This document shows, in pieces, positions 2,236-36,166 of a DNA stretch of 64,000 nt. This DNA comes from a virus. The notes beneath the pieces were generated by a model. That model saw nothing but the letters and a program-made list of their open reading frames with translations, was not told where the DNA came from and searched no databases. The DNA is taken from positions 32,336 through 96,335 of IMG/VR virus record IMGVR_UViG_3300045988_121434; one strand, written 5' to 3'. How positions within the stretch are numbered: the first letter of the stretch is position 1; every line of letters starts with the position of its first letter. Both the position numbers and the translations under genes were made by a program.

Positions 2236-2396
2236 CAGGTTGGTTGATACCTTGGTAACTCAAACAAGAATAGACCATCGAATCAAAAAGGCGGCAATGC
2301 TAATAAGCAAGTACAATTACAGAAAATTCAACAAGCAGTAAACTACCTACAGGCTAAAGACCTATGGGTTTTACGGCGCTCAATATAAATGATAAT

Positions 2397-2801
2397 ATGA
2401 GAACAATTAAATTTCGTGGCAAAGACATCTTTACTGATGCTTGGCGATATGGTGACTTGGTTCACAACCAGAAAGTAACAGCAACTGGCTTAGAGCCTCG
2501 TACAATGGTTGGTGGGTATGAGGTTGACCCAGAGACTGTTGGCAATAACACTGGACTGAAAGACAAGAACGGCAAGGAGATATATGACGGTGATATACTC
2601 GCCCACAATGGCAAGGTTATCGGTCATGTTGTTGACGGTGTGCGTGGTTACTGCTTCGATGTGGTGTATGCCAACCCTGTAAGCGAAAGCACATGGTCGT
2701 TATATGGAGTCGTTTTTTACGATTATAAAGGCGATGTAGAGATTGTAGGCTCCATCCACGATAAGGAATGGCAGGAGAAGTTGAATTTACCATCTGTATA
2801 G
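2397..2801 (+). CDS. YopX-family phage protein
   Basis: MRTIKFRGK...VDPETVGNNTGLKDKNGKEIYDGDIL matches the remembered YopX signature. I chose the ATG at 2397 inside tracked ORF 2364-2801. Confidence 0.7.
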   Translation: MRTIKFRGKDIFTDAWRYGDLVHNQKVTATGLEPRTMVGGYEVDPETVGNNTGLKDKNGKEIYDGDILAHNGKVIGHVVDGVRGYCFDVVYANPVSESTWSLYGVVFYDYKGDVEIVGSIHDKEWQEKLNLPSV

Positions 2802-3045: not shown

Positions 3046-3138
3046 CAGTATTTATAGATATGAGAACAATTAAGTTTAAGGCTAAGACATTGAAGGATGG
3101 CGAATACTTTAAGACTGAAGAAGAAAAGGAGGCCGACA

Positions 3139-3600
3139 ATGATTAAAGCAGAAGACCTTAGAATAGGCGACATTGTGCAGACAAACAAAGACTGCATGTT
3201 TCCGAAAGACACATTGTGCATCGTTACCGAAATCCATCCCGACCGACAGTTTAATGACAAAAAGGGAGTCGTCAGTCTGAAGGCTGTCAACGACGAAGAC
3301 GACGGTCCCTGGGGGACATGGTGCTGCAACATCGATGGCGTGCCCATCACGCCCGAAATACTTCGCAATAATGACTTTAAGGAAGAAGTCGAAGGCAAAT
3401 ACTTCACAAGGCCAATCAAAGTCAGAGCAGGCAGTTCCCTTGCCAGATATTTGGCTGTAGAACGAAAAAAATACGCTTGGGCAATATTCATAAAGTATTA
3501 CAACGTGACAGGCTATGCACTCTTATGTCATGTAAAGTACGTTCACGAACTACGGCTCGCCCTTAAAATAGTAAAATTTAATCCGGAAATGAAAGTATAA
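3139..3600 (+). CDS. Hypothetical phage protein
   Basis: The ATG at 3139 (MIKAEDLRIGDIV...) lies inside tracked ORF 3097-3600. It overlaps the stop of a 28-codon YopX-like leader ORF (3060-3146) by ATGATTAA. Confidence 0.5.
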   Translation: MIKAEDLRIGDIVQTNKDCMFPKDTLCIVTEIHPDRQFNDKKGVVSLKAVNDEDDGPWGTWCCNIDGVPITPEILRNNDFKEEVEGKYFTRPIKVRAGSSLARYLAVERKKYAWAIFIKYYNVTGYALLCHVKYVHELRLALKIVKFNPEMKV

Positions 3601-3628: not shown

Positions 3629-3763
3629 ATGACTGACATTAAGATTTCGGTGCATCCGTTTGGCCATAAGCTCGAATGGCGAGGATGGGGGGGTAACTTC
3701 TCGCCTGCTCTACGAGCCACCGACTACAAATGCCCTCACTGTATAATGATTGAATATGACTAA
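3629..3763 (+). CDS. TRD-like mini-ORF M1 (C5-MTase target-recognition-domain-like)
   Basis: 44 codons: MTDIKISVHPFGHKLEWRGWGGNFSPALRATDYKCPHCIMIEYD*. The SPALRATDYK...IMIE segment resembles the PTLrA-DYK...lIE portion of C5-MTase TRDs. The G7 tract at 3687-3693 is in frame. The stop overlaps the next ATG (ATGACTAA). Confidence 0.55.
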   Translation: MTDIKISVHPFGHKLEWRGWGGNFSPALRATDYKCPHCIMIEYD

Positions 3764-3890
3764 GCAACACCCATTCGATGATTTTCATCAGCGCATTCAT
3801 TGGGACGGCAACTCCATCGGAACCGTTACCCAGCAATGGGGCAATCCTGCGCCGAGGCACGGATGGCGAATAATGACAGAATATGATTAA
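3756..3890 (+). CDS. TRD-like mini-ORF M2
   Basis: 44 codons: MTKQHPFDDFHQRIHWDGNSIGTVTQQWGNPAPRHGWRIMTEYD*. It has the same length and the same ...EYD* end as M1. The TRD resemblance is weaker (IGTVTQQWG). It has an 8-nt ATGATTAA overlap with M3. Confidence 0.4.
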   Translation: MTKQHPFDDFHQRIHWDGNSIGTVTQQWGNPAPRHGWRIMTEYD

Positions 3891-4212
3891 CCCTCACACG
3901 CCCCGCTACAAGCGCGGCACCATCACCAAGGACGGCAAGCTATACGGACGCTATCCCGACGGTTCGCTCTACCGCATCTACTCCACCTCTGACCGACCCT
4001 TCCTTCAGATTGTTGACCGCAAGGGCGAGACGTTCCTTCGCATACGCCAAGCCACCGAGCAGGGCTATACCGACTGCCCTTGCCCTGGTGCTGCCGACCT
4101 CAGCTATTCCTCCTCGGCTCTAAGGCGCAGCAGGACGGTTGGGGGGGGGGGTAAGCTGGTGAACGCTCTGACCGCAGCAAGCGGAGGGGCGTGCGTGTTT
4201 GTTGAATTATGA
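3883..4212 (+). CDS. TRD-like ORF M3
   Basis: 109 codons. ...IRQATEQGYTDCPCPGAADLSYSSSALRRSRTVGGGGKLVNALTAASGGACVFVEL* fits the remembered TRD pattern (GY...dl..p.S..RRGRVg....a.TLt). The G10 tract at 4141-4150 is in frame. Confidence 0.6.
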   Translation: MINPHTPRYKRGTITKDGKLYGRYPDGSLYRIYSTSDRPFLQIVDRKGETFLRIRQATEQGYTDCPCPGAADLSYSSSALRRSRTVGGGGKLVNALTAASGGACVFVEL

Positions 4213-4219
4213 CTTGAAT

Positions 4220-4396
4220 ATGCTTAGAGCAAAGGCAATATCAATAATGGTGAAAAAGGTGGAGCAGACCATGGTGTTTCAGAACATGCAAGCCAAAGGT
4301 CTGATAACGCCTCGCTCGCTTGATGGCGAATGTTTTACTCTTACGTCTGCAATGGGATTAGGGGGGGCAAACGCCTGTAATAGTAAAGGTATATGA
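4220..4396 (+). CDS. TRD-like mini-ORF M4 (non-canonical end as sequenced)
   Basis: ATG at 4220 (the track starts at TTG 4199). The sequence ...GECFTLTSAMGLGG is followed by the G7 tract at 4361-4367. As sequenced it ends NSKGI*. With G6 it would read GLGGQTPVIVKVYD* and end at TAA 4398-4400 with the canonical ATGACTAA overlap. Confidence 0.5.
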   Translation: MLRAKAISIMVKKVEQTMVFQNMQAKGLITPRSLDGECFTLTSAMGLGGANACNSKGI

Positions 4397-4524
4397 CTAA
4401 ATACGACCTCTACCAATATCCTCGTGGCTACAACGACGGAGGTAGATTAGGCACTGACGTTTGCCCGACCTTGACAATCAATTCGTGGCAGCAAAATGTA
4501 TTTCTGATTGAAGAATATGAATAA
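4393..4524 (+). CDS. TRD-like mini-ORF M5, in frame with the MTase core
   Basis: 43 codons: MTKYDLYQYPRGYNDGGRLGTDVCPTLTINSWQQNVFLIEEYE*. It has a CPTLT TRD core. It is in the same reading frame as ORF 4537-5865, separated only by TAA 4522-4524 plus 4 codons (SKDN). Confidence 0.6.
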   Translation: MTKYDLYQYPRGYNDGGRLGTDVCPTLTINSWQQNVFLIEEYE

Positions 4525-4536
4525 AGCAAAGACAAT

Positions 4537-5865
4537 ATGATCACAAAACTCAATTTCACCGACCGCACCATCAAGAGCTATGCTATCCGTAAGCTCACGC
4601 CAAAGGAGTGTTTCCGCTTGATGGGCGTTCGCGACAACGTAATCGGCACGATGCAGAGCAGCAATGCCCAAGCAGCCGAACGTTTGCCCGACTGGAAGGG
4701 CAAGGGCAAACCCGAAGACATGGCTATATCTGCCTCACAGCAGTACAAGCAAGCCGGAAACTCAATCGTGGTGGACGTGTTGGCCCACATCTACGAGCAA
4801 CTTTTCTATCCCGCACCGCCCAAGCCCCGCAAGCAGGAACAGCTCACGCTCTTCGCCGACCTTGATGACTCGCTGCCCGCCATGCCACCAACAGCCGGAG
4901 AACGTGGTAAGGAAAATCTTTTCCTCACCACGTTCTCCGGCTACGACTCGCAGCTCATGGCAGCCGACGTGCTATGCGAGTGGCATCCCGACTTCCGATG
5001 GACATGCGTAGGATGGAGCGACATCGACAAATACGCCTGTCAGATGCACAACCTCGTCTTCCCTCAGTTTGCCGACTGCGCCCTTGGCGACATCACCAAG
5101 ATTGACTGGCATGAGGTGAAACGCTCGCTCCATGGGCGCGAGGTTGACATCTTCACCTATTCCTCGCCTTGCCAGGACATCAGCCAAGCCGGAAAGCAAA
5201 TGGGACTGAAAGAGGGCAGCGACACACGAAGCGCCCTGCTTTGGCGAGTGGCAGATGCCGTGGAGGTGTTGCGCCCGAAATATCTCTTGCAGGAGAACGT
5301 GGCGGCACTGGTAAGCTCGAAGTTCATGCCCGACTTTCAGAAGTGGCTCGACAAACTCTCCTCGCTCGGCTATGTGAGCCGTTGGGCGCGACTCAACGCA
5401 AAGAACTATGGTGTGCCACAAAACCGCGATCGTGTGTTCTGCATTTCCATGCGCAAAGACGTAGCCTTCGACTATCAGTTTCCCGAACCCTTCGAGCTGC
5501 GCACCCGACTGGAGGACGTGTTGGAAAATGAGGTAGCCGACCGTTATTTCCTAAAAGACGATGCCGTGAGCAAGTTTCTCAAGGCTAACGACTCCGACAA
5601 CGCCCTATTCATGCAGTTCGACCTGCCACCGACACACGAGGCAGCGATGTTCCTCAAGACCGTGCTTCAGATATTCATGGAGCGTCACGACGGATGGGAC
5701 GAAGGCATTGAGTGGAACGAGAAGGAGCTGAGCTATCGTCGCCCAACCATCGCCCGTCTCTACGAAAAGTTCAAGGAGAACCCAAAGAAACTGGACGTGG
5801 AATATTGGCGCGGCTTTTACAAGATGTTTAAGGAGAATATGGAGAGGAATAAGGATGCGAACTGA
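4537..5865 (+). CDS. DNA (cytosine-5)-methyltransferase catalytic core, circularly permuted (IX-X-I-IV-VI-VIII), no internal TRD
   Basis: Motifs seen, in order: IRKLTPKECFRLMG (IX), QAGNSIVVDVL (X), Pro-rich linker, TTFSGYDSQ (I), SSPCQDIS (IV, PCQ), LLQENV (VI), GVPQNRDRVF (VIII). These are followed by a helical tail of about 135 aa. Confidence 0.85.
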   Translation: MITKLNFTDRTIKSYAIRKLTPKECFRLMGVRDNVIGTMQSSNAQAAERLPDWKGKGKPEDMAISASQQYKQAGNSIVVDVLAHIYEQLFYPAPPKPRKQEQLTLFADLDDSLPAMPPTAGERGKENLFLTTFSGYDSQLMAADVLCEWHPDFRWTCVGWSDIDKYACQMHNLVFPQFADCALGDITKIDWHEVKRSLHGREVDIFTYSSPCQDISQAGKQMGLKEGSDTRSALLWRVADAVEVLRPKYLLQENVAALVSSKFMPDFQKWLDKLSSLGYVSRWARLNAKNYGVPQNRDRVFCISMRKDVAFDYQFPEPFELRTRLEDVLENEVADRYFLKDDAVSKFLKANDSDNALFMQFDLPPTHEAAMFLKTVLQIFMERHDGWDEGIEWNEKELSYRRPTIARLYEKFKENPKKLDVEYWRGFYKMFKENMERNKDAN

Positions 5866-6046
5866 CAACCCACCCGACCGTGTAATCCATATCATAGCTG
5901 ATATGATTATGGGTGGCAGGTTGCTCACCTGCCCTGCCTCGATGTTCAGTGCAGAACGCTGCAACGGAGCCTTTCACGGCATAGCAATAACCATCATGTC
6001 GCGCACCGATTGCAGCGACGTGTTCTTTGTAGCAGTAGAATTATGA
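5855..6046 (+). CDS. TRD-like mini-ORF M6
   Basis: 63 codons. It overlaps the end of the core ORF by 11 nt. ...NGAFHGIAITIMSRTDCSDVFFVAVEL* has the same VEL* end as M3 and M13. The TRD resemblance is moderate. Confidence 0.45.
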   Translation: MRTDNPPDRVIHIIADMIMGGRLLTCPASMFSAERCNGAFHGIAITIMSRTDCSDVFFVAVEL

Positions 6047-6191
6047 AGAAAACCAACCCGTGTCACGCAATACAAAATGGGGGGGTACGATTGCGCCTGC
6101 AATTACTTCCCACTATTTTAAGGCTGGTGTGCGAGACTTCCTCTTTGCCCTTGCCATACCACATTGTTGTTTGATAGTAGAATATGAATAA
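6043..6191 (+). CDS. TRD-like mini-ORF M7, frameshifted at a G7 tract as sequenced
   Basis: The ATG at 6043 opens MKKTNPCHAIQNGG. After the G7 tract (6079-6085) the TRD-like sequence WGGTIAPAITSHYFKAGVRDFLFALAIPHCCLIVEYE* continues in another frame and ends at TAA 6189-6191. One extra G (G8) would fuse the two parts. As sequenced, the ATG frame stops at 6174. Confidence 0.5.
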
Positions 6192-6336
6192 CAACCCTCG
6201 CCCTATCATCCTCGGCTCTTACAGTCCCTCGCAGAACGGCATCATCGTGTCACCACACGGCATAGCCTTGTGCATAGCCGGGGGAGGTAAGGGTCACGAT
6301 GTGGATAAACCGAAAATACTGATAGAGTATGACTGA
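6184..6336 (+). CDS. TRD-like mini-ORF M8
   Basis: 50 codons: MNNNPRPIILGSYSPSQNGIIVSPHGIALCIAGGGKGHDVDKPKILIEYD*. It fits the pattern G-i-a-p-T/C-l-.-a-GGG...pKi-iE. It has 8-nt overlaps at both ends. Confidence 0.6.
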   Translation: MNNNPRPIILGSYSPSQNGIIVSPHGIALCIAGGGKGHDVDKPKILIEYD

Positions 6337-6508
6337 CAAGTATTACATTGGCTGGGTACGCAGCGGCAAGGACGGCAAGGGCCTCGTAAAGAGCAGACCG
6401 CGCAAGCAGATAGCCAATGCCGTGACGACAATGGTCGGAAGAGGTATTGCCGACCCTCGCGACGGACTCGGCAACACCACACCGCATATAGTATATGAAT
6501 TTGAGTAA
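6329..6508 (+). CDS. TRD-like mini-ORF M9
   Basis: 59 codons: ...RPRKQIANAVTTMVGRGIADPRDGLGNTTPHIVYEFE*. ANAVTT resembles the sNtLTT core. Confidence 0.5.
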   Translation: MTDKYYIGWVRSGKDGKGLVKSRPRKQIANAVTTMVGRGIADPRDGLGNTTPHIVYEFE

Positions 6509-6525
6509 CCCATAAAACAAAAAAA

Positions 6526-6906
6526 ATGGAAAAAGACAAAAACGTAGAGATAGGCCGTGCTCTCGCCAATTTTGATATGGCCTGTCGCAATTTGGTCAAC
6601 CTTGTCAACGACCAACTCTTCGAGACCTCCCGCTCACCCTACTGGGTAGCCGACGAGGTAGGAGGCATCTGCGACTTCGGCGATACCGACTTCCTCACGC
6701 CCGAAGAAATGGTGCTCATTCTCGAACACGGCGTCAGCTACGACGACTATGTAGAGTGGCGCGAAGCCAACATCAAGTATGGCGACACCAAAGGCTACAT
6801 CAAACTCAAGTCATGGCTCCGCGGATGCCGACACGACCGTGTGGAGGGTGCAAATACCAAGACAAACTGCATCGCCCCAGTCCGTGGCCGTGGAGTAATT
6901 CGATAA
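6526..6906 (+). CDS. Hypothetical protein embedded in the TRD array
   Basis: 126-codon ORF with normal composition and no MTase or TRD motif recognised. Confidence 0.5.
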   Translation: MEKDKNVEIGRALANFDMACRNLVNLVNDQLFETSRSPYWVADEVGGICDFGDTDFLTPEEMVLILEHGVSYDDYVEWREANIKYGDTKGYIKLKSWLRGCRHDRVEGANTKTNCIAPVRGRGVIR

Positions 6907-6931
6907 CAACAGTAACAAAAGACAACCTCCT

Positions 6932-7105
6932 ATGCTACACTTTCGCATAGCAGCCTTTCGAGGCCGTGACCCCGACAATCCGTCCGACCGCAAGCATCCC
7001 TCCTGCGGTCGTTTCCGTCAGCGCATGGAGATAAATGCGTTGGGTACGACCAACACGCTTACGTCAGTAGGCAAGGATAATATGGCATATATAGAGTATG
7101 AATAA
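6932..7105 (+). CDS. TRD-like mini-ORF M10
   Basis: 57 codons: MLHFRIAAFRGRDPDNPSDRKHPSCGRFRQRMEINALGTTNTLTSVGKDNMAYIEYE*. It closely follows a remembered Dcm-family TRD string (vAmRGRnPeNPsDR...eQrlE.n.dG.sNTLTSVqKDN). Confidence 0.65.
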   Translation: MLHFRIAAFRGRDPDNPSDRKHPSCGRFRQRMEINALGTTNTLTSVGKDNMAYIEYE

Positions 7106-7247
7106 TCAAACCCCATTCGTGCAACGCCTCTCTCGCCTCTGCCCACGTCGGGGGTACTCCACCGCCCTGTCCGCACGCTACGACGGATGGGCAGGGCTCT
7201 ACGACGAGCACGGACAGCACACCATTGTATTGATAGAGTATGAATAA
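7098..7247 (+). CDS. TRD-like mini-ORF M11
   Basis: 49 codons: MNNQTPFVQRLSRLCPRRGYSTALSARYDGWAGLYDEHGQHTIVLIEYE*. STALSARYDG resembles sPTLtARy.kg. Confidence 0.55.
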   Translation: MNNQTPFVQRLSRLCPRRGYSTALSARYDGWAGLYDEHGQHTIVLIEYE

Positions 7248-7380
7248 GTACATACAAAATTGTCCGTCAGGTATCTGTTGCGTTCTGACCTCTCATTACG
7301 CAAGAGAAGGATGGGCGAACATAGCAAGCAATACAACATCACAATGCAAAGCACCCACAATATTGATAGAGTATGAATAA
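7240..7380 (+). CDS. TRD-like mini-ORF M12
   Basis: 46 codons: MNKYIQNCPSGICCVLTSHYAREGWANIASNTTSQCKAPTILIEYE*. It has the 18-nt junction TTGATAGAGTATGAATAA, identical to that of M11. Confidence 0.55.
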   Translation: MNKYIQNCPSGICCVLTSHYAREGWANIASNTTSQCKAPTILIEYE

Positions 7381-7867
7381 AAATGTAACAAACCCCATAA
7401 AAACAACAGAGACAATGAAACCAGAAGAAAACAACCGTATGGAGGCACTTGCCTACATCATAGCCGACCTAAAGGCAGAGAACATAGAGCTGGTGCAGCG
7501 TGTGCATCAGCTTGTGGAGGATTACAACGACGTAGCACGTCAGTTGCGTGGAATGGAGAAGCGTAAGGACGAAGACCAGTCAAGGCAGACGCTCGGCGAA
7601 ATGATGCAGATGCGCGACCATTGCGACAAACTGGAGGTTGAAAACAACAATTTGAAGACGTGCTTGATAGCAGTCAGCTCGTTTCTGCGAGACAAAAATC
7701 TGTATATGGCTAATGGCACATTATGTTCTTATGGGTCTGGCAATCCAGAAGTATGTCCTGAGTACTGCAAAAAATGTAACTCCTACCTAAGTACTTTAAA
7801 GGATGTTGGTGTGGTTTGCAGCAGAAGACTTGCAGAAGCTTCCGTAATTTTTGCGAAGAGTAAATGA
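7373..7867 (+). CDS. Hypothetical coiled-coil protein with Cys-rich C-terminus, embedded in the TRD array
   Basis: 164-codon ORF joined to M12 by the same 8-nt overlap. It is heptad-rich in the middle and has CPEYCKKC near the C-terminus. Confidence 0.5.
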   Translation: MNKNVTNPIKTTETMKPEENNRMEALAYIIADLKAENIELVQRVHQLVEDYNDVARQLRGMEKRKDEDQSRQTLGEMMQMRDHCDKLEVENNNLKTCLIAVSSFLRDKNLYMANGTLCSYGSGNPEVCPEYCKKCNSYLSTLKDVGVVCSRRLAEASVIFAKSK

Positions 7868-8025
7868 CACCAACAAAAACCCTCGTAGTCGGCATGATGC
7901 AGACGCCACCCTATGACCGCATGTTTGAGCAGAGCCGCCGCGTGTACTCCGCTCAGGGAATATCGCCCACGCTGCATACACAAGGGGGGGGTGATAGAGA
8001 GATTAAGGTATTGGTGGAGCTGTAA
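7864..8025 (+). CDS. TRD-like mini-ORF M13
   Basis: 53 codons: MTPTKTLVVGMMQTPPYDRMFEQSRRVYSAQGISPTLHTQGGGDREIKVLVEL*. This is the textbook-looking TRD core (R-vY...G-iSPTL-t-GGG...k-l). The G8 tract at 7984-7991 is in frame. Confidence 0.65.
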   Translation: MTPTKTLVVGMMQTPPYDRMFEQSRRVYSAQGISPTLHTQGGGDREIKVLVEL

Positions 8026-8141
8026 GAATGTCCGCTCCATATCGCCGACAACACCTATCTTTGCACATATCACTGAACGAATGAGACTAACATCGTTTTC
8101 ATTTGTTTCGTCTGGTGACAAACAAAAACAACATTTCATCT

Positions 8142-8495
8142 ATGATACAACATCAGCATTGGGAAGACTCCACTCACATACTCATTACCGACGAGCAGCA
8201 TCATGGCAGCATACAGGTGTTCATCCCCAAGCGCACCGAAGACAAGCCCTTGGATGGCGAGGCTGACGCTCTCGTCTATTCGCTGTGGGTGGGCGAACGG
8301 CACCGTGGCCGTGGGGTGGCAAAACTCCTGATGGAGACAGCCGAAAGGGAACTGAAGCGCTGCGGCATAGCGACCGTCGCTATATCGTGGGATGGACGCG
8401 ACTCTCCCCAATGGGTGTTGCAATGGTATGAAAGGTTGGGCTACGAAGGAAAAGCGTTCGACTACCGCTGCTGCACGCTTCTTAAACGGTTGTAG
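8142..8495 (+). CDS. GNAT-family N-acetyltransferase (short paralogue)
   Basis: Motif A is WVGERHRGRGVAKLLMETAERELK. It aligns by eye with the C-terminal half of ORF 1116-1775. The ATG at 8142 lies inside tracked ORF 8103-8495. Confidence 0.7.
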   Translation: MIQHQHWEDSTHILITDEQHHGSIQVFIPKRTEDKPLDGEADALVYSLWVGERHRGRGVAKLLMETAERELKRCGIATVAISWDGRDSPQWVLQWYERLGYEGKAFDYRCCTLLKRL

Positions 8496-8663: not shown

Positions 8664-9839
8664 ATGAGCGACTTAAAGATTTTTGCAAAGACCATTGAAC
8701 CTGAAGCCCAGGAGCAAGTAAGGCAGATGGCAGAGAGCGAGGCTTACCGCGACTGTAAGATTCGCATTATGCCCGATTGCCATGCCGGAAAGGAATGCAC
8801 CGTAGGCACCGTGATTGAGACCCGCGGCAAAGTGGTGCCCAACACCGTGGGCGTTGACATCGGTTGCGGTATGCTCGTGTGGGATTTAGGCTTTGCCAAC
8901 ATTGATATGGAGATTCTCGACCGTATCATCAACGACAACATTCCAAGCGGATTCAATGTGCATGAGAAGCGTTTGTCGTCAGAGATGGTTTCCCTTATGC
9001 ACAATGAAATATGGTGTTTTTTGCCTCCGTGGAAGCAATATTTTGACCTCGACTATGTACTGCGTTCGCTCGGCACCCTTGGCGGTGGCAGCCACTTTAT
9101 TGAGGTTGACGTGGACGACGAAGGACGCAAGTATCTTGTAGTACATTCGGGTAGCCGCAATTTAGGCGTAAAGATATGCCGACATTTTCAGCAGTTGGCA
9201 TCAAGACAATGCAACAACAGTGAGGAACGTGGACGTATCATTTCCGAACTGAAAGCTCAGGGCAGACAGAGCGAGATAAACGATGCGCTGCGCCGGTTGA
9301 AACCCGTTTCTAAAGACATGGCCTACATTAGCGGTACCACGCTTGGCGATTACTATGATGCCATGCGCTTGTGTCAGCATTATGCCGACTTGAACCGTTT
9401 TCTTATGGCGCAAACCATAATCAAAGGTCTTGAACTAAAGTCTACAGGTCGTGTGTTCACCACCATGCACAACTACATCGACACCTTCGGCATTATCCGC
9501 AAGGGAGCTGTGAGCGCAAAGAAGGGCGAGCCTCTGATTATCCCTCTGAACATGCGCGACGGTTCGCTGCTGTGTACTGGCAAGGGCAACAACGACTGGC
9601 TTCAGTCGGCTCCCCACGGCGCAGGCAGACTAATGTCGCGCTCGGCTGCCAAGAAGCAGCTCAGCATGGACGAATACCGCCAACAGATGCACGACATCTA
9701 CTCTACATCGGTATGCGAGGCCACAATCGACGAAGCTCCAATGGCGTATAAGTCGGCAGAGGAAATAGAAGCGTTGATAGGCGACACCGTGAACATCGTG
9801 AAGCGCATTAAGCCGATATATAACTTTAAGGCGAAGTAA
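8664..9839 (+). CDS. rtcB: RtcB-type RNA 3'-phosphate/5'-OH ligase
   Basis: Characteristic RtcB strings are present: MPDCHAGKE, GVDIGCGM, GGGSHFIEVD, HSGSRNLG, TMHNYI, IPLNMRDG, APHGAGR. Confidence 0.9.
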   Translation: MSDLKIFAKTIEPEAQEQVRQMAESEAYRDCKIRIMPDCHAGKECTVGTVIETRGKVVPNTVGVDIGCGMLVWDLGFANIDMEILDRIINDNIPSGFNVHEKRLSSEMVSLMHNEIWCFLPPWKQYFDLDYVLRSLGTLGGGSHFIEVDVDDEGRKYLVVHSGSRNLGVKICRHFQQLASRQCNNSEERGRIISELKAQGRQSEINDALRRLKPVSKDMAYISGTTLGDYYDAMRLCQHYADLNRFLMAQTIIKGLELKSTGRVFTTMHNYIDTFGIIRKGAVSAKKGEPLIIPLNMRDGSLLCTGKGNNDWLQSAPHGAGRLMSRSAAKKQLSMDEYRQQMHDIYSTSVCEATIDEAPMAYKSAEEIEALIGDTVNIVKRIKPIYNFKAK

Positions 9840-15048: not shown

Positions 15049-15468
15049 TTACATTTTGAATTGTTTTTTCAAGAAAGTGTTGCTTTTAATAAGCTCTATC
15101 ATTTCCTCCTCGGAGTGTATTCCTTCCCAAAATACTTCAGTATGCGACCCACGCCTTTCATCATCTACGGAGAACGGCACGGCATAGTTGGTATATACAA
15201 CACCGTGATGTTTTATCAAGTGACGACCTGGATTCTTGTAGATGTTATTGATCCACGTCTCGTTGTCACATTCAGTCCATATTTTACATTCTTTGTGGGT
15301 AAGATTTTTGTCGATACCCATAGGATAGTGACCTGCCTTGCCGTTACTTTTGTTCCGAAATAAATGATCTTTGCCATATCGTGATTGTTTTATAATTCGC
15401 CAAAGTCCAGTTTCATCTGTTGGAATTTCTCGGCATACCATTGTTTGTATGATTTGCCCGAAATCCAC
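15049..15468 (-). CDS. Hypothetical protein (start uncertain)
   Basis: 139-codon ORF with protein-like composition. The first ATG would overlap the upstream gene by 79 nt, so the true start may be internal. Confidence 0.45.
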   Translation of the reverse strand: MDFGQIIQTMVCREIPTDETGLWRIIKQSRYGKDHLFRNKSNGKAGHYPMGIDKNLTHKECKIWTECDNETWINNIYKNPGRHLIKHHGVVYTNYAVPFSVDDERRGSHTEVFWEGIHSEEEMIELIKSNTFLKKQFKM

Positions 15469-16547
15469 CAGTCGTAGATATTTTCCGCTATTTCGTTTTC
15501 TTGCTCCTCCGTCAAGCGGTCAGAAGAGGAGCTGGACGAAAACCCTGGGGCTGCGATATTCCGTACACCTCTGTTTTGTCTCCAATGTTCCGGGTCTGGA
15601 TGTTTGATGTAGCCGCCTGTGTCCTGAGCAATCCTCTGACGTTTCTGAGAGGCATCCAGTCCTTGCGGATGTTCCACCAAATATATTCTCTTTTGAATAC
15701 CCCCCCCGTTTCGGATAGCCTTAATAGCCTTTATCCAGTTGCGCTTGATATGCGGATAGCGTTCATTCTCGATGCGTTTCTGCTTTGCAGACGACATAGG
15801 GCAGCCGATGCAGCCGATGCGATGCCATCCCTCGTCGTAGAGCGAGCAATGCGGAACCTTCACCACATCGTTAAGAAACTCCCATACGTCCTTTTCCGTC
15901 CAATAAATGATGGGTGAAATAAGCAGACTCTCTTTGCCGTGGATGCAGCTTAATGTCTGTTCTTCATCAGCATTAGTGATATTCACGCCTTGCTCCTTGG
16001 ATTTACGGCGAGCACGTTTAGCCTTCAGCTCCTGACGATATTCGTCCAGACCGTCAAGATTGCCACTAAACTTTCGGTTATTTATTTCTACCTCATTTCG
16101 TTTGGCTCGGCGTGCGCTCTCTGCCTTGCGGATGCCGATTAGCGTTACCTTGCCAGCACCTGCCGTTTCCTTATATTCAGCGCAACACCAGCGCACACGC
16201 ATAGTGGGCAGAATCTGCTTTTCTACGGCAATCTGAAAGATAGATTTGCCAGGCTTTAGCAGTTCCACCTCGGGATAGTTCTTCTTAACGAAACGTATCA
16301 CTTCGGGTGGATCAACGCTCGTAAGATTCATGTGACCGCGAAATTTCACCCCCGCCAACTGAGTCATGTGGAAAAGAGCTTGAGAATCCTTTCCACCACT
16401 AAACGCCAAGTAATATCCATTCTCGGCATCATAGTTGAGGGCTATCTTCTCTGCTTTTTGCAGCAGCTCCACCGAGTGAAGCATCTTTTTTCGCAGTCCT
16501 TCCGAAGCTCGCTCCAATGCTTCGGCAAGCGTAATGTCTATATTCAT
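15390..16547 (-). CDS. PAPS-reductase-like PP-loop ATPase family protein
   Basis: It has the PP-loop YLAFSGGKDSQAL, followed by Cys-containing motifs (RWCC, CIGCP) and a basic central insert. A G8 tract on the coding strand (C8 at 15700-15707) is in frame. Confidence 0.7.
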   Translation of the reverse strand: MNIDITLAEALERASEGLRKKMLHSVELLQKAEKIALNYDAENGYYLAFSGGKDSQALFHMTQLAGVKFRGHMNLTSVDPPEVIRFVKKNYPEVELLKPGKSIFQIAVEKQILPTMRVRWCCAEYKETAGAGKVTLIGIRKAESARRAKRNEVEINNRKFSGNLDGLDEYRQELKAKRARRKSKEQGVNITNADEEQTLSCIHGKESLLISPIIYWTEKDVWEFLNDVVKVPHCSLYDEGWHRIGCIGCPMSSAKQKRIENERYPHIKRNWIKAIKAIRNGGGIQKRIYLVEHPQGLDASQKRQRIAQDTGGYIKHPDPEHWRQNRGVRNIAAPGFSSSSSSDRLTEEQENEIAENIYDWWISGKSYKQWYAEKFQQMKLDFGEL

Positions 16548-35212: not shown

Positions 35213-36166
35213 ATGGAACTACGACATTTGCGCTCCTTTGTTTTTGTGGCGGAAACAAAGTCGTTCAGTATCGCCGCCACCCGATGTTGCGTAACCCAAT
35301 CGGCAGTAAGCCAGCATATCCGGGCATTGGAAGATGAATTAGGTTGCAAACTACTTATTCGTACCTCGCACGAAATCAACCTTACAGAGAGTGGCGAAGC
35401 TCTCTTGCCAAGGGCTAAGGACATCATCAAGCAGACAGAGGACTGCAAGGAACAAATTAATGCGCTTAACAACTGCATGATTGGTGAACTGCGTATAGGT
35501 ATTGGCTCTTTCATCGCTCCTTACGTCAGAATGGCTGCACTCATTTTTATGGAGCGATACCCTAACGTGCGTATCAATGCCGATTTCACAAAGGCGCATA
35601 TCCTTAACAAAACGCTCCGTGCGCACATGATAGACCTCGCCTTTACCATGAACACGGCATATAGCCACGAGGGTATAGAGTCGCAGCCGTGCATACCATT
35701 CTCCGTGTATGCCATTATGCGTGATACCCATCCGCTTTCCTGTTTACCGAAAGTGTCGTATGAGGATTTGTTGAAACACCCGGTCATAATGCCCGATGTT
35801 GGTGAGCGTGTGTTTGAAACCTGTCAGCAATACATACAGCGCGACCTGTATAAATTGAATATAAAATGTGTGATAAGCGACCCCGATGAAGCACTTGCAT
35901 CCGTGGAAGAAACGAAATGTGTTACGTTCATGACACAGCTCTATTTGCGCCACCACCCTACACTTGTGGCTCGCCCTATCGTGGGACTTGAACGCCAACT
36001 GATGAGTAATGCCCACTGGATGAAGGATGTTCCTATAAAGCGGTCAGCGCAAATTTTCTTGGATATAATAAAGAATGAAGTAGTGCCTTATATTTCTGTT
36101 ATCGAAGAGACGAAAGGCACTTTTACCCCCCCCCCGATAGATATTAGCAATTCTGCCTCACGCTAA
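35213..36166 (+). CDS. LysR-family transcriptional regulator
   Basis: It has the N-terminal wHTH MELRHLRSFVFVAETKSFSIAATRCCVTQSAVSQHIRALEDELGCKLL and a typical LTTR effector-domain length. A C10 tract at 36126-36135 lies near the 3' end. Confidence 0.9.
   Translation: MELRHLRSFVFVAETKSFSIAATRCCVTQSAVSQHIRALEDELGCKLLIRTSHEINLTESGEALLPRAKDIIKQTEDCKEQINALNNCMIGELRIGIGSFIAPYVRMAALIFMERYPNVRINADFTKAHILNKTLRAHMIDLAFTMNTAYSHEGIESQPCIPFSVYAIMRDTHPLSCLPKVSYEDLLKHPVIMPDVGERVFETCQQYIQRDLYKLNIKCVISDPDEALASVEETKCVTFMTQLYLRHHPTLVARPIVGLERQLMSNAHWMKDVPIKRSAQIFLDIIKNEVVPYISVIEETKGTFTPPPIDISNSASR

What the first reader, a model, noticed from the sequence alone, without database searches (positions are those of the whole stretch)
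3629..8025. Array of 13 stand-alone C5-methyltransferase TRD-like mini-ORFs around a single catalytic core
I count 13 short plus-strand ORFs of 43-109 codons. Their coordinates are M1 3629-3763, M2 3756-3890, M3 3883-4212, M4 4220-4396, M5 4393-4524, M6 5855-6046, M7 6043-6191, M8 6184-6336, M9 6329-6508, M10 6932-7105, M11 7098-7247, M12 7240-7380 and M13 7864-8025. Most fall below the ORF-track cut-off. Each contains a segment I recognise as the core of a C5-cytosine MTase target-recognition domain. Examples are M13 RVYSAQGISPTLHTQGGGDREIKVLVEL, M10 AAFRGRDPDNPSDR...NTLTSVGKDNMAYIEYE, M3 ATEQGY...LSYSSSALRRSRTVGGGGKLVNALTAASGG, M5 CPTLTINS, M8 GIALCIAGGGKGHDVDKPKILIEYD, M11 STALSARYDGWAG, M12 CCVLTSHYAREGW and M9 IANAVTTMVGRG. 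Nearly all end in hydrophobic-hydrophobic-E-[Y/L]-[D/E]-stop. Neighbouring modules are chained by an 8-nt stop/start overlap, ATGAnTAA, with each next ORF in the +1 frame. The M11 and M12 junctions share an identical 18-mer, TTGATAGAGTATGAATAA (7230-7247 and 7363-7380), and close variants occur at 6171, 6319 and 7091. Only one catalytic core (4537-5865) is present. The module sizes match the roughly 40-70 aa TRDs of multispecific Bacillus-phage C5-MTases (SPR, phi3T, rho11s, from memory). In those enzymes, however, the TRDs are fused inside one polypeptide between motifs VIII and IX. I do not know of separately framed, individually startable TRD genes having been described. Three hypotheses fit: (a) plug-in TRD subunits that dock in trans onto the permuted core and give the phage a broad anti-restriction methylation repertoire; (b) silent specificity cassettes exchanged into an expression site through the conserved junction repeats; (c) a decaying multi-TRD gene. 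The preserved ORF integrity, the uniform ends and the uniform junction geometry argue against simple decay.
Basis: partly seen in the sequence, partly recalled or inferred. Interest (0 to 1): 0.9.

Follow-up and report, generated by a model that had tools for sequence, protein, structure and literature searches.

The report
Split phage methyltransferase with switchable specificity mini-genes
A widespread family of gut phages, probably infecting Prevotella, encodes one DNA cytosine methyltransferase core that lacks its DNA-reading domain, surrounded by up to 13 tiny genes that each encode one such domain, and many of these carry a slippery run of G's that turns them on or off, which probably lets the phage vary the DNA marks that protect it from bacterial restriction enzymes.

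Summary
Window 3629-8025 holds 13 plus-strand mini-genes around one circularly permuted C5-methyltransferase core (4537-5865; motifs IX-X then I-VIII, no target-recognition domain).

- **Homology.** Ten modules are demonstrably homologous to the tandem TRDs of multispecific C5-MTases. M13 matches M.H2I of Bacillus phage H2. Several families tile the fused beta subunit of Dulem virus 40. M6, M9 and M11 share only motifs.
- **Conservation.** All 80 related viral contigs examined, and thousands of protein clusters, keep TRD-less ~440-aa cores with arrays of separately framed TRD genes. These show dN/dS 0.11-0.22, and their start codons are held inside the previous stop (8-nt ATGAnTAA).
- **Correction.** M4 and M7 are not intact. 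Both are frameshifted at poly-G tracts.
Poly-G tracts are about 14-fold enriched in modules. Their lengths differ between otherwise identical contigs. In-frame lengths are 5/8/11 and out-of-frame lengths 6/7/9/10. They explain 80 of 89 frameshifts.

Best explanation (inferred, untested): single-TRD proteins dock in trans on the core, giving a multispecific anti-restriction methylase whose specificities switch individually by slipped-strand mutation. This is a new variant of a known kind. No description was found in the literature held.

The parts
3629..3763 (+). M1: single-TRD mini-gene (44 aa, ...SPALRATDYKCPHCIMIEYD). G7 tract at 3687-3693, in frame (ON).
   Evidence: The family has 25 intact and 23 frameshifted orthologs, all shifts at the G tract. 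hhalign links it to the C5 family at 85%. dN/dS 0.17.
3756..3890 (+). M2: single-TRD mini-gene (44 aa). No G tract.
   Evidence: Fused counterpart in P0260, E 2e-16. 20 of 20 orthologs intact. dN/dS 0.11.
3883..4212 (+). M3: long TRD mini-gene (109 aa, ...IRQATEQGY...RRSRTVGGGGKLVNALTAASGG...VFVEL). G11 tract at 4141-4151, in frame (ON).
   Evidence: Fused counterparts P0207 and P0180, E 1e-20. Orthologs are ON at G5/8/11 and OFF at G6/7/9.
4220..4400 (+). M4: TRD mini-gene, frameshifted (OFF) at the G7 tract 4361-4367. As sequenced, the ORF ends at 4396 (...NSKGI-stop). The conserved C-terminus QTPVIVKVYD-stop lies in another frame ending at 4400.
   Evidence: orthologs read ...GLGGGQTPVIVKVYD. 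Fused counterparts P0239 and P0175. dN/dS 0.22.
4393..4524 (+). M5: single-TRD mini-gene (43 aa, ...CPTLTINSWQQNVFLIEEYE), directly upstream of the core.
   Evidence: Fused counterparts P0165 and P0155, E 5e-15. Matches Dulem beta 163-196, E 1.7e-7.
4537..5865 (+). Catalytic core. A circularly permuted C5-cytosine methyltransferase (442 aa): motifs IX-X in residues ~15-95, then motifs I-VIII in residues ~125-357, then an ~85-aa conserved tail. It has no TRD recognition loops.
   Evidence: PF00145, E 2e-51, in two stretches. Residues 10-109 align to the C-terminus of Dulem beta (46% identity) and residues 129-348 to Dulem alpha (40% identity). More than 7900 homologous clusters, of which the 120 best listed are ~440 aa.
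5855..6046 (+). M6: putative TRD mini-gene (63 aa, ...HGIAITIMSRTD...FVAVEL). Overlaps the core stop by 11 nt.
   Evidence: Supported only by motif and position, with no fused counterpart found. 25 intact and 9 frameshifted orthologs. dN/dS 0.15.
6043..6191 (+). M7: TRD mini-gene, frameshifted (OFF) at the G7 tract 6079-6085. The ATG frame stops at 6172-6174. The C-terminal frame (...APAITSHYFKAG...LIVEYE) ends at 6191.
   Evidence: 149 nt. (L030 ortholog in frame: MKKINPCHAIQNGGGTIAPAITSHYF...). hhalign links it to C13 at 96.6% and to M12 at 95.4%.
6184..6336 (+). M8: single-TRD mini-gene (50 aa, ...GIALCIAGGGKGHDVDKPKILIEYD). G5 run at 6280-6284.
   Evidence: hhalign to M13 at 85%. Orthologs are ON at G5/8 and OFF at G6/7/10. 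dN/dS 0.12.
6329..6508 (+). M9: putative TRD mini-gene (59 aa, ...IANAVTTMVGRG...HIVYEFE).
   Evidence: Supported by motif and position only. 50 intact orthologs, dN/dS 0.21.
6526..6906 (+). X1: 126-aa ORF of unknown function embedded in the array. Present in only a minority of relatives.
   Evidence: No Pfam or PHROG hit. Distribution.
6932..7105 (+). M10: single-TRD mini-gene (57 aa, ...FRGRDPDNPSDR...NTLTSVGKDNMAYIEYE).
   Evidence: Many fused counterparts, E down to 5e-23. Matches Dulem beta 93-136, E 3e-11. Equivalent to the last TRD of P0134, just before motif IX.
7098..7247 (+). M11: putative TRD mini-gene (49 aa, ...YSTALSARYDGWAG...VLIEYE). G5 run at 7150-7154 (ON).
   Evidence: The tract CGTC-Gn-TAC is 5, 6, 7, 8 or 9 nt in relatives with identical flanks, and 6, 7 and 9 are out of frame. 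dN/dS 0.15. TRD status rests on motif only.
7240..7380 (+). M12: single-TRD mini-gene (46 aa, ...CCVLTSHYAREGW...TILIEYE).
   Evidence: Matches Dulem beta 4-40, E 5e-3 at Z=1000. hhalign to C13 at 99.3% and to C5 at 90%. 16 of 17 orthologs intact.
7373..7867 (+). X2: 164-aa ORF (coiled-coil, Cys-rich C-terminus) of unknown function, chained between M12 and M13.
   Evidence: No significant family hit. Usually precedes M13 in relatives.
7864..8025 (+). M13: single-TRD mini-gene (53 aa, ...RRVYSAQGISPTLHTQGGGDREIKVLVEL). G8 tract at 7984-7991, in frame (ON).
   Evidence: 306 stand-alone homologs of 53-88 aa. 1148 hits in the representative library, including multi-TRD C5-MTases. Matches M.H2I residues 322-352, E 7e-10. 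PDB hits are weak but fall on the TRDs of M.MpeI and M.HhaI.

Best explanation
This is a disassembled multispecific C5-cytosine DNA methyltransferase.

- **Core.** One gene (4537-5865) makes a circularly permuted catalytic core, with motifs IX-X fused in front of I-VIII. Its chain ends lie exactly where the target-recognition domain normally sits, and it has no TRD of its own.
- **Modules.** Around it, 13 mini-genes each encode one TRD unit of the kind that multispecific phage methylases carry in tandem inside one polypeptide.
- **Translation.** The mini-genes are translated one after another as separate 43-109-aa proteins, by termination-reinitiation at overlapping stop/start junctions (ATGAnTAA or ATGA).
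- **Function.** Each TRD protein is proposed to bind the core non-covalently and direct m5C to its own DNA motif. Phage DNA would then be pre-protected against many host Type II restriction systems.
- **Switching.** Many modules carry a poly-G tract in the Gly-rich recognition loop. Slipped-strand gain or loss of G's moves that one module in or out of frame. In this genome M4 and M7 are OFF and the other 11 are ON. A phage population would therefore carry a mixture of methylation repertoires, plausibly as bet-hedging between methylation-sensitive and methylation-dependent restriction.

Shown here: the homology, the architecture, purifying selection, selection on the start codons, and tract-length polymorphism. 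Inferred: translation, assembly in trans, distinct specificities, and reversible switching with its adaptive value.
For: **Core**
- PF00145, E 2e-51, split as IX-X then I-VIII.
- It equals the tail of Dulem virus 40 beta plus Dulem alpha.
- It is the only C5 core in the window.

**Modules are TRDs**
- Exhaustive HMMER with the M13 family: 87 hits at E<=1e-10, many with 2-6 tandem matches in PF00145 proteins between motifs VIII and IX.
- Three tandem matches in experimentally known multispecific M.H2I, whose TRD ends ...PKIAVEY like the module C-termini.
- Fused counterparts for M2, M3, M4, M5 and M10.
- Serial tiling of Dulem beta by M12, M13, M10, M3, M4, M5 and C5.
- hhalign links for M1, M7 and M8.

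**Function in trans is plausible**
- Of 95 long multi-TRD proteins, 61 are TRDs plus IX-X only, and 24 carry no catalytic motif by the regex check (TRD-only or fragments).
- Natural heterodimeric C5-MTases (M.AquI, M.EcoHK31I), circularly permuted ones (M.BssHII) and fragment complementation are established (PMC5944983, PMC2836561, PMC3404938).

**Separate, selected genes**
- dN/dS 0.11-0.22 in 15 families.
- 353 of about 550 junctions have 8- or 4-nt overlaps.
- The terminal Tyr codon is TAT, which creates the ATG, in 95% of cases against 54% genome-wide, p 1e-45.
- Arrays are present in all 80 related contigs.

**Switching**
- G>=6 runs occur at 1.35/kb in modules against 0.099/kb outside.
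- Gly-Gly is coded GGG-GGN in 9 of 13 cases in modules against 3 of 66 elsewhere, p 6.5e-7.
- 80 of 89 frameshifted orthologs break at a G run. ON lengths are 5/8/11 and OFF lengths 6/7/9/10.
- L041 and L042 have 0 substitutions in 13.3 kb but 3 G-run length differences.
- The same is seen in SPAdes (short-read) assemblies.
Against: - There is no direct evidence that the mini-proteins are made, bind the core or confer methylation.
- AlphaFold2 gave unusable models for the core (pLDDT 36) and for M13 alone (pLDDT 47, no secondary structure). No multimer prediction was possible.
- Single modules score nothing against Pfam. Inserting a module into an un-permuted core adds only 3-6.5 bits over a shuffled insert.
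- M6, M9 and M11 have no demonstrated TRD homolog.
- No natural C5-MTase whose TRD alone is a separate polypeptide was found in the literature held.
- Tract-length differences between assemblies could partly be consensus or sequencing noise. No reads were available to show heterogeneity within a population.
- In OFF modules the shifted frame stops 4-127 nt before the next start, so polar effects on downstream modules cannot be excluded.
Confidence: 0.6

Rival explanations
1. Recoding produces a fused protein. Ribosomes shift +1 at each ATGAnTAA junction, so the real product is one or two long multi-TRD polypeptides like the Dulem virus beta subunit, and the stand-alone ORFs are only apparent.
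For: Fused multi-TRD subunits with the same TRD types exist in relatives. Every junction is a +1 frame step.
Against: - The junction has no slippery P-site. GAA/GAT to AAT/ATT, or TTA to TAT, cannot re-pair (sequence).
- Selection acts specifically on an ATG: the terminal Tyr codon is TAT in 322 of 338 cases, and TAC is used only where no downstream ORF follows.
- Some modules are separated by gaps of 2-30 nt or by unrelated ORFs X1 and X2.
- Gene callers and databases hold hundreds of 53-63-aa stand-alone homologs.
Confidence: 0.06
2. Silent specificity cassettes. Only one module, for example the one directly upstream of the core, is used, and the others are a reservoir exchanged into that position by recombination at the conserved junction repeats.
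For: The module next to the core differs between relatives: M5, C5, C5b, M4, M3, M1 or C10. Cassette gain or loss and transposition occur, for example a 1289-nt indel between L001 and L002. Junction 18-mers are repeated.
Against: - All module families are under purifying selection wherever they sit.
- Each module has its own start codon and poly-G switch.
- The module upstream of the core is a separate ORF too, not consistently in frame with the core.
- No recombinase or invertase lies in the locus.
- The junction repeats are explained by the coding of ...LIEYE-stop plus MN....
Confidence: 0.06
3. Decaying remnant of a fused multi-TRD gene, or a sequencing or assembly artefact.
For: Two of the 13 modules are frameshifted here, and 16% of orthologs are frameshifted overall.
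Against: - dN/dS is 0.11-0.22 at pS 0.33-0.66.
- The same split architecture is seen in all 80 viral contigs examined, in further MAG-binned contigs, and in thousands of protein clusters from independent projects.
- Frameshifts are confined to G tracts (80 of 89) and obey a period-3 ON/OFF rule rather than being random.
Confidence: 0.02
4. The mini-proteins are real but do not serve the phage core. They might act on host methyltransferases or restriction enzymes, as decoys, inhibitors or specificity hijackers, or they might regulate the core negatively by competing for its TRD site.
For: TRD-only polypeptides occur widely. Nothing tested here shows productive assembly with the core.
Against: Modules are always co-located and co-oriented with a TRD-less core that would otherwise be non-functional yet is highly conserved. 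The same TRD types function covalently with homologous catalytic parts in fused relatives.
Confidence: 0.1
5. The modules work in trans, but the poly-G length differences are assembly noise or neutral. Expression is constitutive and there is no phase variation.
For: Homopolymers are error-prone. Only consensus contigs were compared, and Gly-rich loops need G-rich codons.
Against: - GGG-GGN codon pairs are about 15-fold over-used relative to the rest of the genome.
- A and T runs, which are six times more numerous, rarely differ between near-identical contigs, whereas G runs do.
- Tracts of G8, G9, G11 and G22 exist.
- Differences of 2 nt occur.
- The pattern is also present in short-read SPAdes assemblies.
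Confidence: 0.15

Closest known systems
Multispecific C5-MTases of Bacillus phages (M.H2I, M.SPRI, M.Phi3TI, M.Rho11sI, SPbeta)
   Same: One catalytic apparatus serves several short, independent TRD units, and the enzymes are phage-encoded for self-protection against many R-M systems (PMC12707154). M13 is directly homologous to TRD units of M.H2I, including the ...VEY boundary.
   Different: In those enzymes all TRDs are arrayed in a single polypeptide between motifs VIII and IX. Here each TRD is its own gene and protein, the core is permuted and TRD-less, and individual TRDs carry poly-G switches.
Split (alpha/beta) C5-MTases: M.AquI, and the unstudied alpha/beta multi-TRD pairs such as Dulem virus 40 (PP511379.1) and Streptococcus Javan phages
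   Same: The enzyme is assembled from separate polypeptides cut at the edge of the variable region. The TRD types of Dulem beta are the same families as the modules here.
   Different: In those enzymes the TRD(s) stay covalently joined to motifs IX-X. Here IX-X has moved onto the catalytic chain and the TRDs are cut free on both sides.
Naturally circularly permuted C5-MTases (M.BssHII, M.Alw26I, M2.Eco31I, M.Esp3I, M2.BsaI)
   Same: Motifs IX-X precede I-VIII, with the permutation point in the variable region (PMC5944983).
   Different: Those enzymes keep their TRD at the N-terminus of the same chain (type H). This core starts after the TRD position and has none.
M.EcoHK31I
   Same: A C5-MTase that needs a small second polypeptide encoded in an overlapping frame (PMC2836561).
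   Different: Its small chain supplies motif IX, not the TRD. There is one partner, not an array, and no switching.
Type I HsdS specificity subunits and phase-variable Type I/III methyltransferases (phasevarions) of Neisseria, Haemophilus, Helicobacter and Campylobacter
   Same: Functional analogy: specificity is supplied by a separate subunit, there are multiple alternative specificity genes, and ON/OFF switching occurs by homopolymer slippage (PMC7394358, PMC6321876).
   Different: Those are N6-adenine enzymes of cells, unrelated in sequence. Their switching changes the host's methylome and gene regulation. Here it is an m5C enzyme of a virus with up to 13 one-TRD genes.

Membership tests
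C5-cytosine DNA methyltransferase (PF00145) | Conserved motifs I (FxGxG-like), IV (PCQ), VI (ENV), VIII (QxRxR), IX (RxLTPxE) and X (GNS) | tested here: met
   The core has TFSGYDS, SSPCQD, QENV, QNRDR, RKLTPKE and AGNSIV. Pfam E 2e-51.
C5-cytosine DNA methyltransferase (PF00145) | A TRD with recognition loops lies in the same polypeptide between motifs VIII and IX | tested here: not met
   The Pfam match breaks at profile position 222. The un-permuted core without a module gives two stretches, and with a module one stretch covering 23-322. TRD profiles match only the mini-ORFs, not the core.
Multispecific phage C5-MTases (SPR/phi3T/H2 type) | Several homologous TRD units of about 40-60 aa serve one catalytic domain | tested here: met
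   13 modules of 43-109 aa. Homology to TRD units of M.H2I and of multi-TRD PF00145 proteins. One core.
Multispecific phage C5-MTases (SPR/phi3T/H2 type) | The TRDs are contiguous within a single polypeptide | tested here: not met
   Every module ends in a stop, and the next one starts in the +1 frame.
Multispecific phage C5-MTases (SPR/phi3T/H2 type) | Each TRD confers a distinct methylation target | not testable with these tools
   Needs methylome or in vitro data.
Circularly permuted C5-MTases (M.BssHII type) | Motifs IX-X are N-terminal to I-VIII in one chain | tested here: met
   Core residues 10-109 correspond to IX-X and residues 129-348 to I-VIII.
Circularly permuted C5-MTases (M.BssHII type) | The TRD is retained at the new N-terminus (type H) | tested here: not met
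   The core begins 15 residues before motif IX. The upstream module M5 is a separate ORF ending in TAA.
Heterodimeric or split C5-MTases (M.AquI type) | Parts of the enzyme are encoded as separate genes cut at the variable region | tested here: met
   Gene structure. A relative with an alpha/beta split is Dulem virus 40.
Heterodimeric or split C5-MTases (M.AquI type) | The polypeptides associate and activity depends on both | not testable with these tools
   No multimer prediction was available, and the monomer models were unusable.
Simple-sequence-repeat contingency (phase-variable) loci | A homopolymeric tract lies inside the coding region and is over-represented relative to the genome | tested here: met
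   5 of the 6 G>=6 runs in the window lie in modules. About 14-fold enrichment in 80 loci, with codon-pair bias p 6.5e-7.
Simple-sequence-repeat contingency (phase-variable) loci | Tract length is polymorphic between close relatives, giving in-frame and out-of-frame alleles | tested here: met
   ON at 5/8/11 and OFF at 6/7/9/10. Otherwise identical contigs differ only at G or C runs.
Simple-sequence-repeat contingency (phase-variable) loci | High-frequency reversible switching occurs within a population | not testable with these tools
   Needs read-level or experimental data.

The most novel reading that the evidence does not exclude
C5-cytosine methyltransferases can work like Type I systems, with a catalytic core that accepts interchangeable, separately encoded one-domain specificity subunits. 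An abundant gut-phage lineage uses up to 13 of these, each with its own poly-G switch. A single phage genotype would then generate a combinatorial cloud of methylomes, in principle 2^n states, that hedges against both methylation-sensitive and methylation-dependent host restriction.
Probability: 0.45. Interest if true: 0.9.

Novelty: new variant of a known kind. Interest (0 to 1): 0.8.

Why it matters
- **New enzyme organisation.** If the TRD mini-proteins act in trans, this is a new organisation for C5-methyltransferases. The 2025 review held here still describes phage multispecific enzymes as arraying several TRDs in a single polypeptide (PMC12707154).
- **Minimal autonomous TRD.** It would show that a 43-60-aa TRD is an autonomous, portable specificity unit. 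This bears on the long-open question of how several TRDs share one catalytic domain.
- **Engineering.** It would offer plug-and-play parts for programmable m5C writing.
- **Phage contingency loci.** The poly-G switches would be a clear case of contingency loci in a virus, controlling its epigenetic disguise. That has consequences for phage host range in the gut, for phage-host matching by methylation motifs, and for annotation, since these genes are routinely missed or called hypothetical.
- **Reach.** The system is very common: more than 7900 core protein clusters at 90% identity.

Tried and rejected
- Pfam scans of single modules gave no hits because the modules are too short.
- An un-permuted core with an inserted module, against Pfam, gained only 3-6.5 bits over shuffled inserts. 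This is weak support.
- A profile search of PDB sequences hit the TRDs of M.MpeI and M.HhaI, but only at E 0.3-1.
- Megablast against deposited phages found no close relative. tblastn of M3 against phages found nothing.
- AlphaFold2 of the core with a shallow alignment gave pLDDT 35.8. AlphaFold2 of M13 with 86 homologs gave pLDDT 47 and no secondary structure. Both are unusable, so no fold search was run.
- A read-through M5-core fusion could not be submitted because of the stop codon.
- Rfam and tRNA scans of the window found nothing, so there is no intron, riboswitch or suppressor tRNA to suggest recoding.
- I considered stop-codon read-through from the upstream module into the core. This was rejected because spacing and frame are not conserved among relatives.
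- I considered a conserved 7-codon relay ORF between M5 and the core. This was rejected because relatives use TAC instead of TAT there.
- I considered that junction stops in two frames always rescue coupling in OFF modules. This is not supported: shifted frames mostly stop 14-127 nt upstream.
- Eight literature searches found no description of separately encoded C5 TRDs or of phage poly-G-switched TRDs. The library covers open-access papers only, and REBASE could not be consulted.

Full report

Yes, with two corrections.

All 13 reading frames and the quoted peptides are present on the plus strand. The shared C-terminus, two hydrophobic residues then E-[Y/L/F]-[D/E]-stop, is highly specific. 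It ends 559 of 11,241 plus-strand stop-to-stop segments but only 1 of 13,202 minus-strand segments in the window plus 80 related loci. Within the 64-kb window it occurs only between 3.6 and 8.0 kb.

The 18-mer TTGATAGAGTATGAATAA is exact at 7230-7247 and 7363-7380, with close variants at 7088 and 6319. That is 4 matches against 0.04 expected. Neighbouring modules are chained by ATGAnTAA (8-nt) or ATGA (4-nt) overlaps, with each next ORF in the +1 frame.

Only one C5-methyltransferase core exists in the window.

The corrections:
- M7 as given (6043-6191) is 149 nt and is not an ORF. Its ATG frame and its ...LIVEYE frame are joined only across the G7 tract at 6079-6085.
- M4 has lost its conserved C-terminus (...GLGGGQTPVIVKVYD in relatives) through a frameshift at its G7 tract at 4361-4367.

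**2. What the parts are**

*The core.* The 442-aa core matches PF00145 (E 2e-51) in two blocks. Motifs IX-X lie in residues ~15-95, and motifs I-VIII in residues ~125-357. An ~85-aa conserved tail follows. No recognition loops are present.

It aligns to two adjacent gene products of a deposited phage, Dulem virus 40 (PP511379.1). Core residues 10-109 align to the extreme C-terminus of a 373-aa beta subunit at 46% identity. Core residues 129-348 align to the 258-aa alpha subunit at 40% identity. The core is therefore a fusion of a beta tail (IX-X) to an alpha chain (I-VIII). This is a circular permutation whose chain ends lie on either side of the TRD position.

*The modules.* The modules are TRD units.
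- **M13 family, stand-alone copies.** A profile of the M13 family recovers 306 stand-alone 53-88-aa proteins in the 5.8-billion-sequence collection.
- **M13 family, fused copies.** In an exhaustive HMMER scan of 1.84 billion representatives it finds 1148 proteins at E<=1e-3, 87 of them at E<=1e-10. Many are 300-1200 aa with 2-6 tandem matches. Eight of the ten long hits that were scanned are PF00145 proteins, and where both motifs are present the matches lie between motifs VIII and IX. Examples are P0134, P0139, P0130 and P0140.
- **Classical enzyme.** The same profile matches three tandem segments (270-294, 322-352, 368-388) of the multispecific M.H2I of Bacillus phage H2. These lie between motif VIII (position 158) and motif IX (position 442). 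The best is E 7e-10, and that TRD ends ...PKIAVEY, the same boundary as the module C-termini.
- **Other families.** Family profiles built from the related loci find fused counterparts for M2, M3, M4, M5 and M10 at E 1e-14 to 1e-23.
- **Tiling.** Profiles of M12, M13, M10, M3 (part), M4 (tail), M5 and C5 (a module family of relatives, absent from this window) tile the Dulem beta subunit in series, up to motif IX.
- **Profile-profile links.** hhalign joins M7, M12 and C13 (another relatives-only family) at 95-99%. It joins M12 to C5 at 90%, M8 to M13 at 85%, and M1 to C5 at 85%.
- **Unresolved.** M6, M9 and M11 share only the T-[LIV]-x motif, the C-terminal signature and the position.
- **Weaker tests.** Single modules give nothing in Pfam. 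PDB sequence hits fall on the TRDs of M.MpeI and M.HhaI, but only at E 0.3-1. Inserting a module into an un-permuted core restores one continuous Pfam match (profile positions 23-322) but adds only 3-6.5 bits over a shuffled insert.

**3. Conservation and selection**

The core family is very large, with more than 7900 clusters at 90% identity. The 120 best listed are ~440 aa, with names such as Prevotella sp. and Caudoviricetes MAGs. Eighty viral contigs (50-110 kb, 70-95% core identity) were fetched, and further copies sit in MAG bins, two of them Prevotella.

Every locus has the same design: a TRD-less core flanked on both sides by TRD mini-genes. Order is mostly syntenic, with presence/absence differences and some transpositions. 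For example, M4 lies upstream or downstream of the core, and M9 follows M8, M11 or M12. At least about 20 module families exist.

Pairwise Nei-Gojobori estimates give dN/dS 0.11-0.22 at pS 0.33-0.66 for all 15 families measured. The mini-ORFs are therefore protein-coding and constrained, not decaying.

The junction start codon is itself selected:
- The terminal Tyr codon is TAT, which creates the ATG, in 322 of 338 cases. The figure is 54% in long ORFs and 62% inside modules (p 1e-45).
- 292 of those ATGs open an ORF of at least 30 aa.
- TAC appears only where nothing follows.

This argues for separate initiation by termination-reinitiation rather than ribosomal frameshifting. The junction also offers no slippery site for frameshifting.

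**4.

Five of the six G-runs of 6 nt or more in the 64-kb window lie in modules: M1 (G7), M3 (G11), M4 (G7), M7 (G7) and M13 (G8).

In the 80 loci, G>=6 runs occur at 1.35/kb inside modules against 0.099/kb outside. A, T and C runs show no comparable enrichment.

GGG is only 10% of Gly codons in long ORFs. Gly-Gly is coded GGG-GGN in 9 of 13 cases in modules against 3 of 66 elsewhere (Fisher p 6.5e-7).

Among 570 orthologous module copies, 89 are frameshifted, and 80 of those break at a G-run. In-frame tract lengths are 5, 8 and 11. Out-of-frame lengths are 6, 7, 9 and 10. Families without a tract (M2, M12, C5b) show no frameshifts. Fifty-eight of 81 genomes carry at least one OFF module.

Near-identical contig pairs show how fast the tracts change:
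- L041 and L042 have 0 substitutions in 13.3 kb but differ at three G-runs and one C-run.
- L054 and L055 have 1 substitution and 2 G-run differences.
- L001 and L002 have 16 substitutions, 4 G-run differences and one 1289-nt cassette indel.

SPAdes short-read assemblies show the same tracts and frameshifts.

This is the signature of simple-sequence contingency loci. The remaining caveat is that I compared consensus contigs, not reads.

**5. How it most likely works**

Shown here:
- A TRD-less permuted core.
- Modules that are TRD units.
- Modules that are individually framed, under purifying selection, and chained by selected overlapping start codons.
- Hypermutable G tracts that gate individual modules.

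Established knowledge:
- TRDs of multispecific phage enzymes act independently of one another, and these enzymes protect phage DNA against several R-M systems (PMC12707154).
- C5-MTases tolerate natural and artificial splitting and circular permutation in the variable region. Examples are M.AquI, M.EcoHK31I, M.BssHII and SssI/MpeI fragments (PMC5944983, PMC2836561, PMC3404938).

Supplying TRDs on a chain other than the catalytic one is therefore common in nature.

Inferred:
- Each mini-protein docks on the core between its C-terminal tail and its N-terminal motif IX region, and directs m5C to one motif.
- The array gives broad anti-restriction protection.
- Slippage in a tract silences one specificity without disabling the catalytic core or the other TRDs, which a fused gene could not do.
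- This creates mixed methylation states that could hedge against methylation-dependent (Type IV) restriction.

In this genome M4 and M7 are OFF and the other 11 are ON.

I put about 0.6 on the whole chain. I am much more confident in the TRD identity (~0.95) and in separate functional proteins (~0.8). I am less confident in action in trans with the core (~0.65) and in genuine phase variation (~0.65).

**6. Rivals**

- **Recoding into a fused product.** Unlikely. There is no slippery site, the ATG is selected, and gaps and the unrelated ORFs X1 and X2 interrupt the chain.
- **Silent cassettes.** Unlikely. All modules are constrained and startable, and no recombinase is present. Even so, cassette shuffling clearly happens on evolutionary time.
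- **Decay or artefact.** Contradicted by selection and by independent assemblies.
- **Mini-proteins serve something other than the phage core.** This cannot be excluded, but it would leave a conserved TRD-less core without a function.
- **G-tract differences are noise.** This is possible for some cases. It does not explain the codon bias, the G-specificity, or tracts of G11 and G22.

**7. Comparison with what is known, and novelty**

The system works like a multispecific phage C5-MTase, and its parts are homologous to one. It fails the family's defining architecture, TRDs within a single polypeptide. It is permuted like M.BssHII but lacks that enzyme's TRD. It is split like M.AquI or Dulem alpha/beta, but it is cut on both sides of each TRD.

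Conceptually it resembles Type I systems with separate, multiple, phase-variable specificity subunits, without any sequence relationship to them.

I found no description of separately encoded C5 TRDs, or of poly-G-switched TRDs in a phage, in eight full-text searches. The library covers open-access papers only, and REBASE was not available.

Verdict: a new variant of a known kind. It would be surprising to specialists in restriction-modification, and it is directly testable.

**8. What failed**

AlphaFold2 models of the core (pLDDT 36) and of M13 alone (pLDDT 47) were unusable, so no fold search was made. No multimer modelling was possible. Rfam and tRNA scans were empty.

Noticed in passing
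window 15700-15707 (within minus-strand ORF 15390-16547): A C8 run, which is G8 on the coding strand, sits inside a PAPS-reductase-like gene (phrog_424, E 4e-35). This may be another homopolymer-switched gene, possibly related to DNA modification.
   Followed up: no
window 36126-36135 (3' end of plus-strand ORF 35213-36166): A C10 run encodes a Pro stretch near the C-terminus of an ORF whose N-terminus looks like a LysR-type HTH regulator. That assignment is by eye and was not tested. A C7/C8 run is also the only non-G difference between the otherwise identical L041 and L042 (L041:11170).
   Followed up: partly
window 6526-6906 (X1) and 7373-7867 (X2): Two ORFs without any family match are embedded in the translationally chained TRD array. 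X2 (coiled-coil plus Cys-rich tail) usually precedes M13 in relatives, and X1 is present in only a few. They could be accessory factors of the methylase or unrelated insertions.
   Followed up: partly
L047:66-87: The closest relative found (95% core identity) has a G22 run, coding about seven glycines, in the module directly upstream of the core. This is far longer than any other tract.
   Followed up: no
L001 vs L002, around L001:7549: Two contigs that differ by 16 substitutions differ by one clean 1289-nt indel that adds or removes the M8+M10 modules. This is evidence for cassette-wise gain or loss at module junctions.
   Followed up: partly
L082 (Dulem virus 40, PP511379.1) 1487-2489: Small ORFs annotated as hypothetical lie upstream of the alpha/beta methylase genes, and the first two overlap by 8 nt. 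By eye their translations do not look like TRDs.
   Followed up: partly
window 2364-2801, 8103-8495, 8664-9839: The array is flanked by a YopX-family gene, a GNAT acetyltransferase and an RtcB RNA ligase. In most relatives one or more of these flanking genes (GNAT, RtcB, the 167-aa ORF at 3097-3600) recur beside the array.
   Followed up: no
P0144 (1176 aa): A multi-TRD C5-MTase homolog carries an intein (Hint plus LAGLIDADG domains) in its catalytic part.
   Followed up: no
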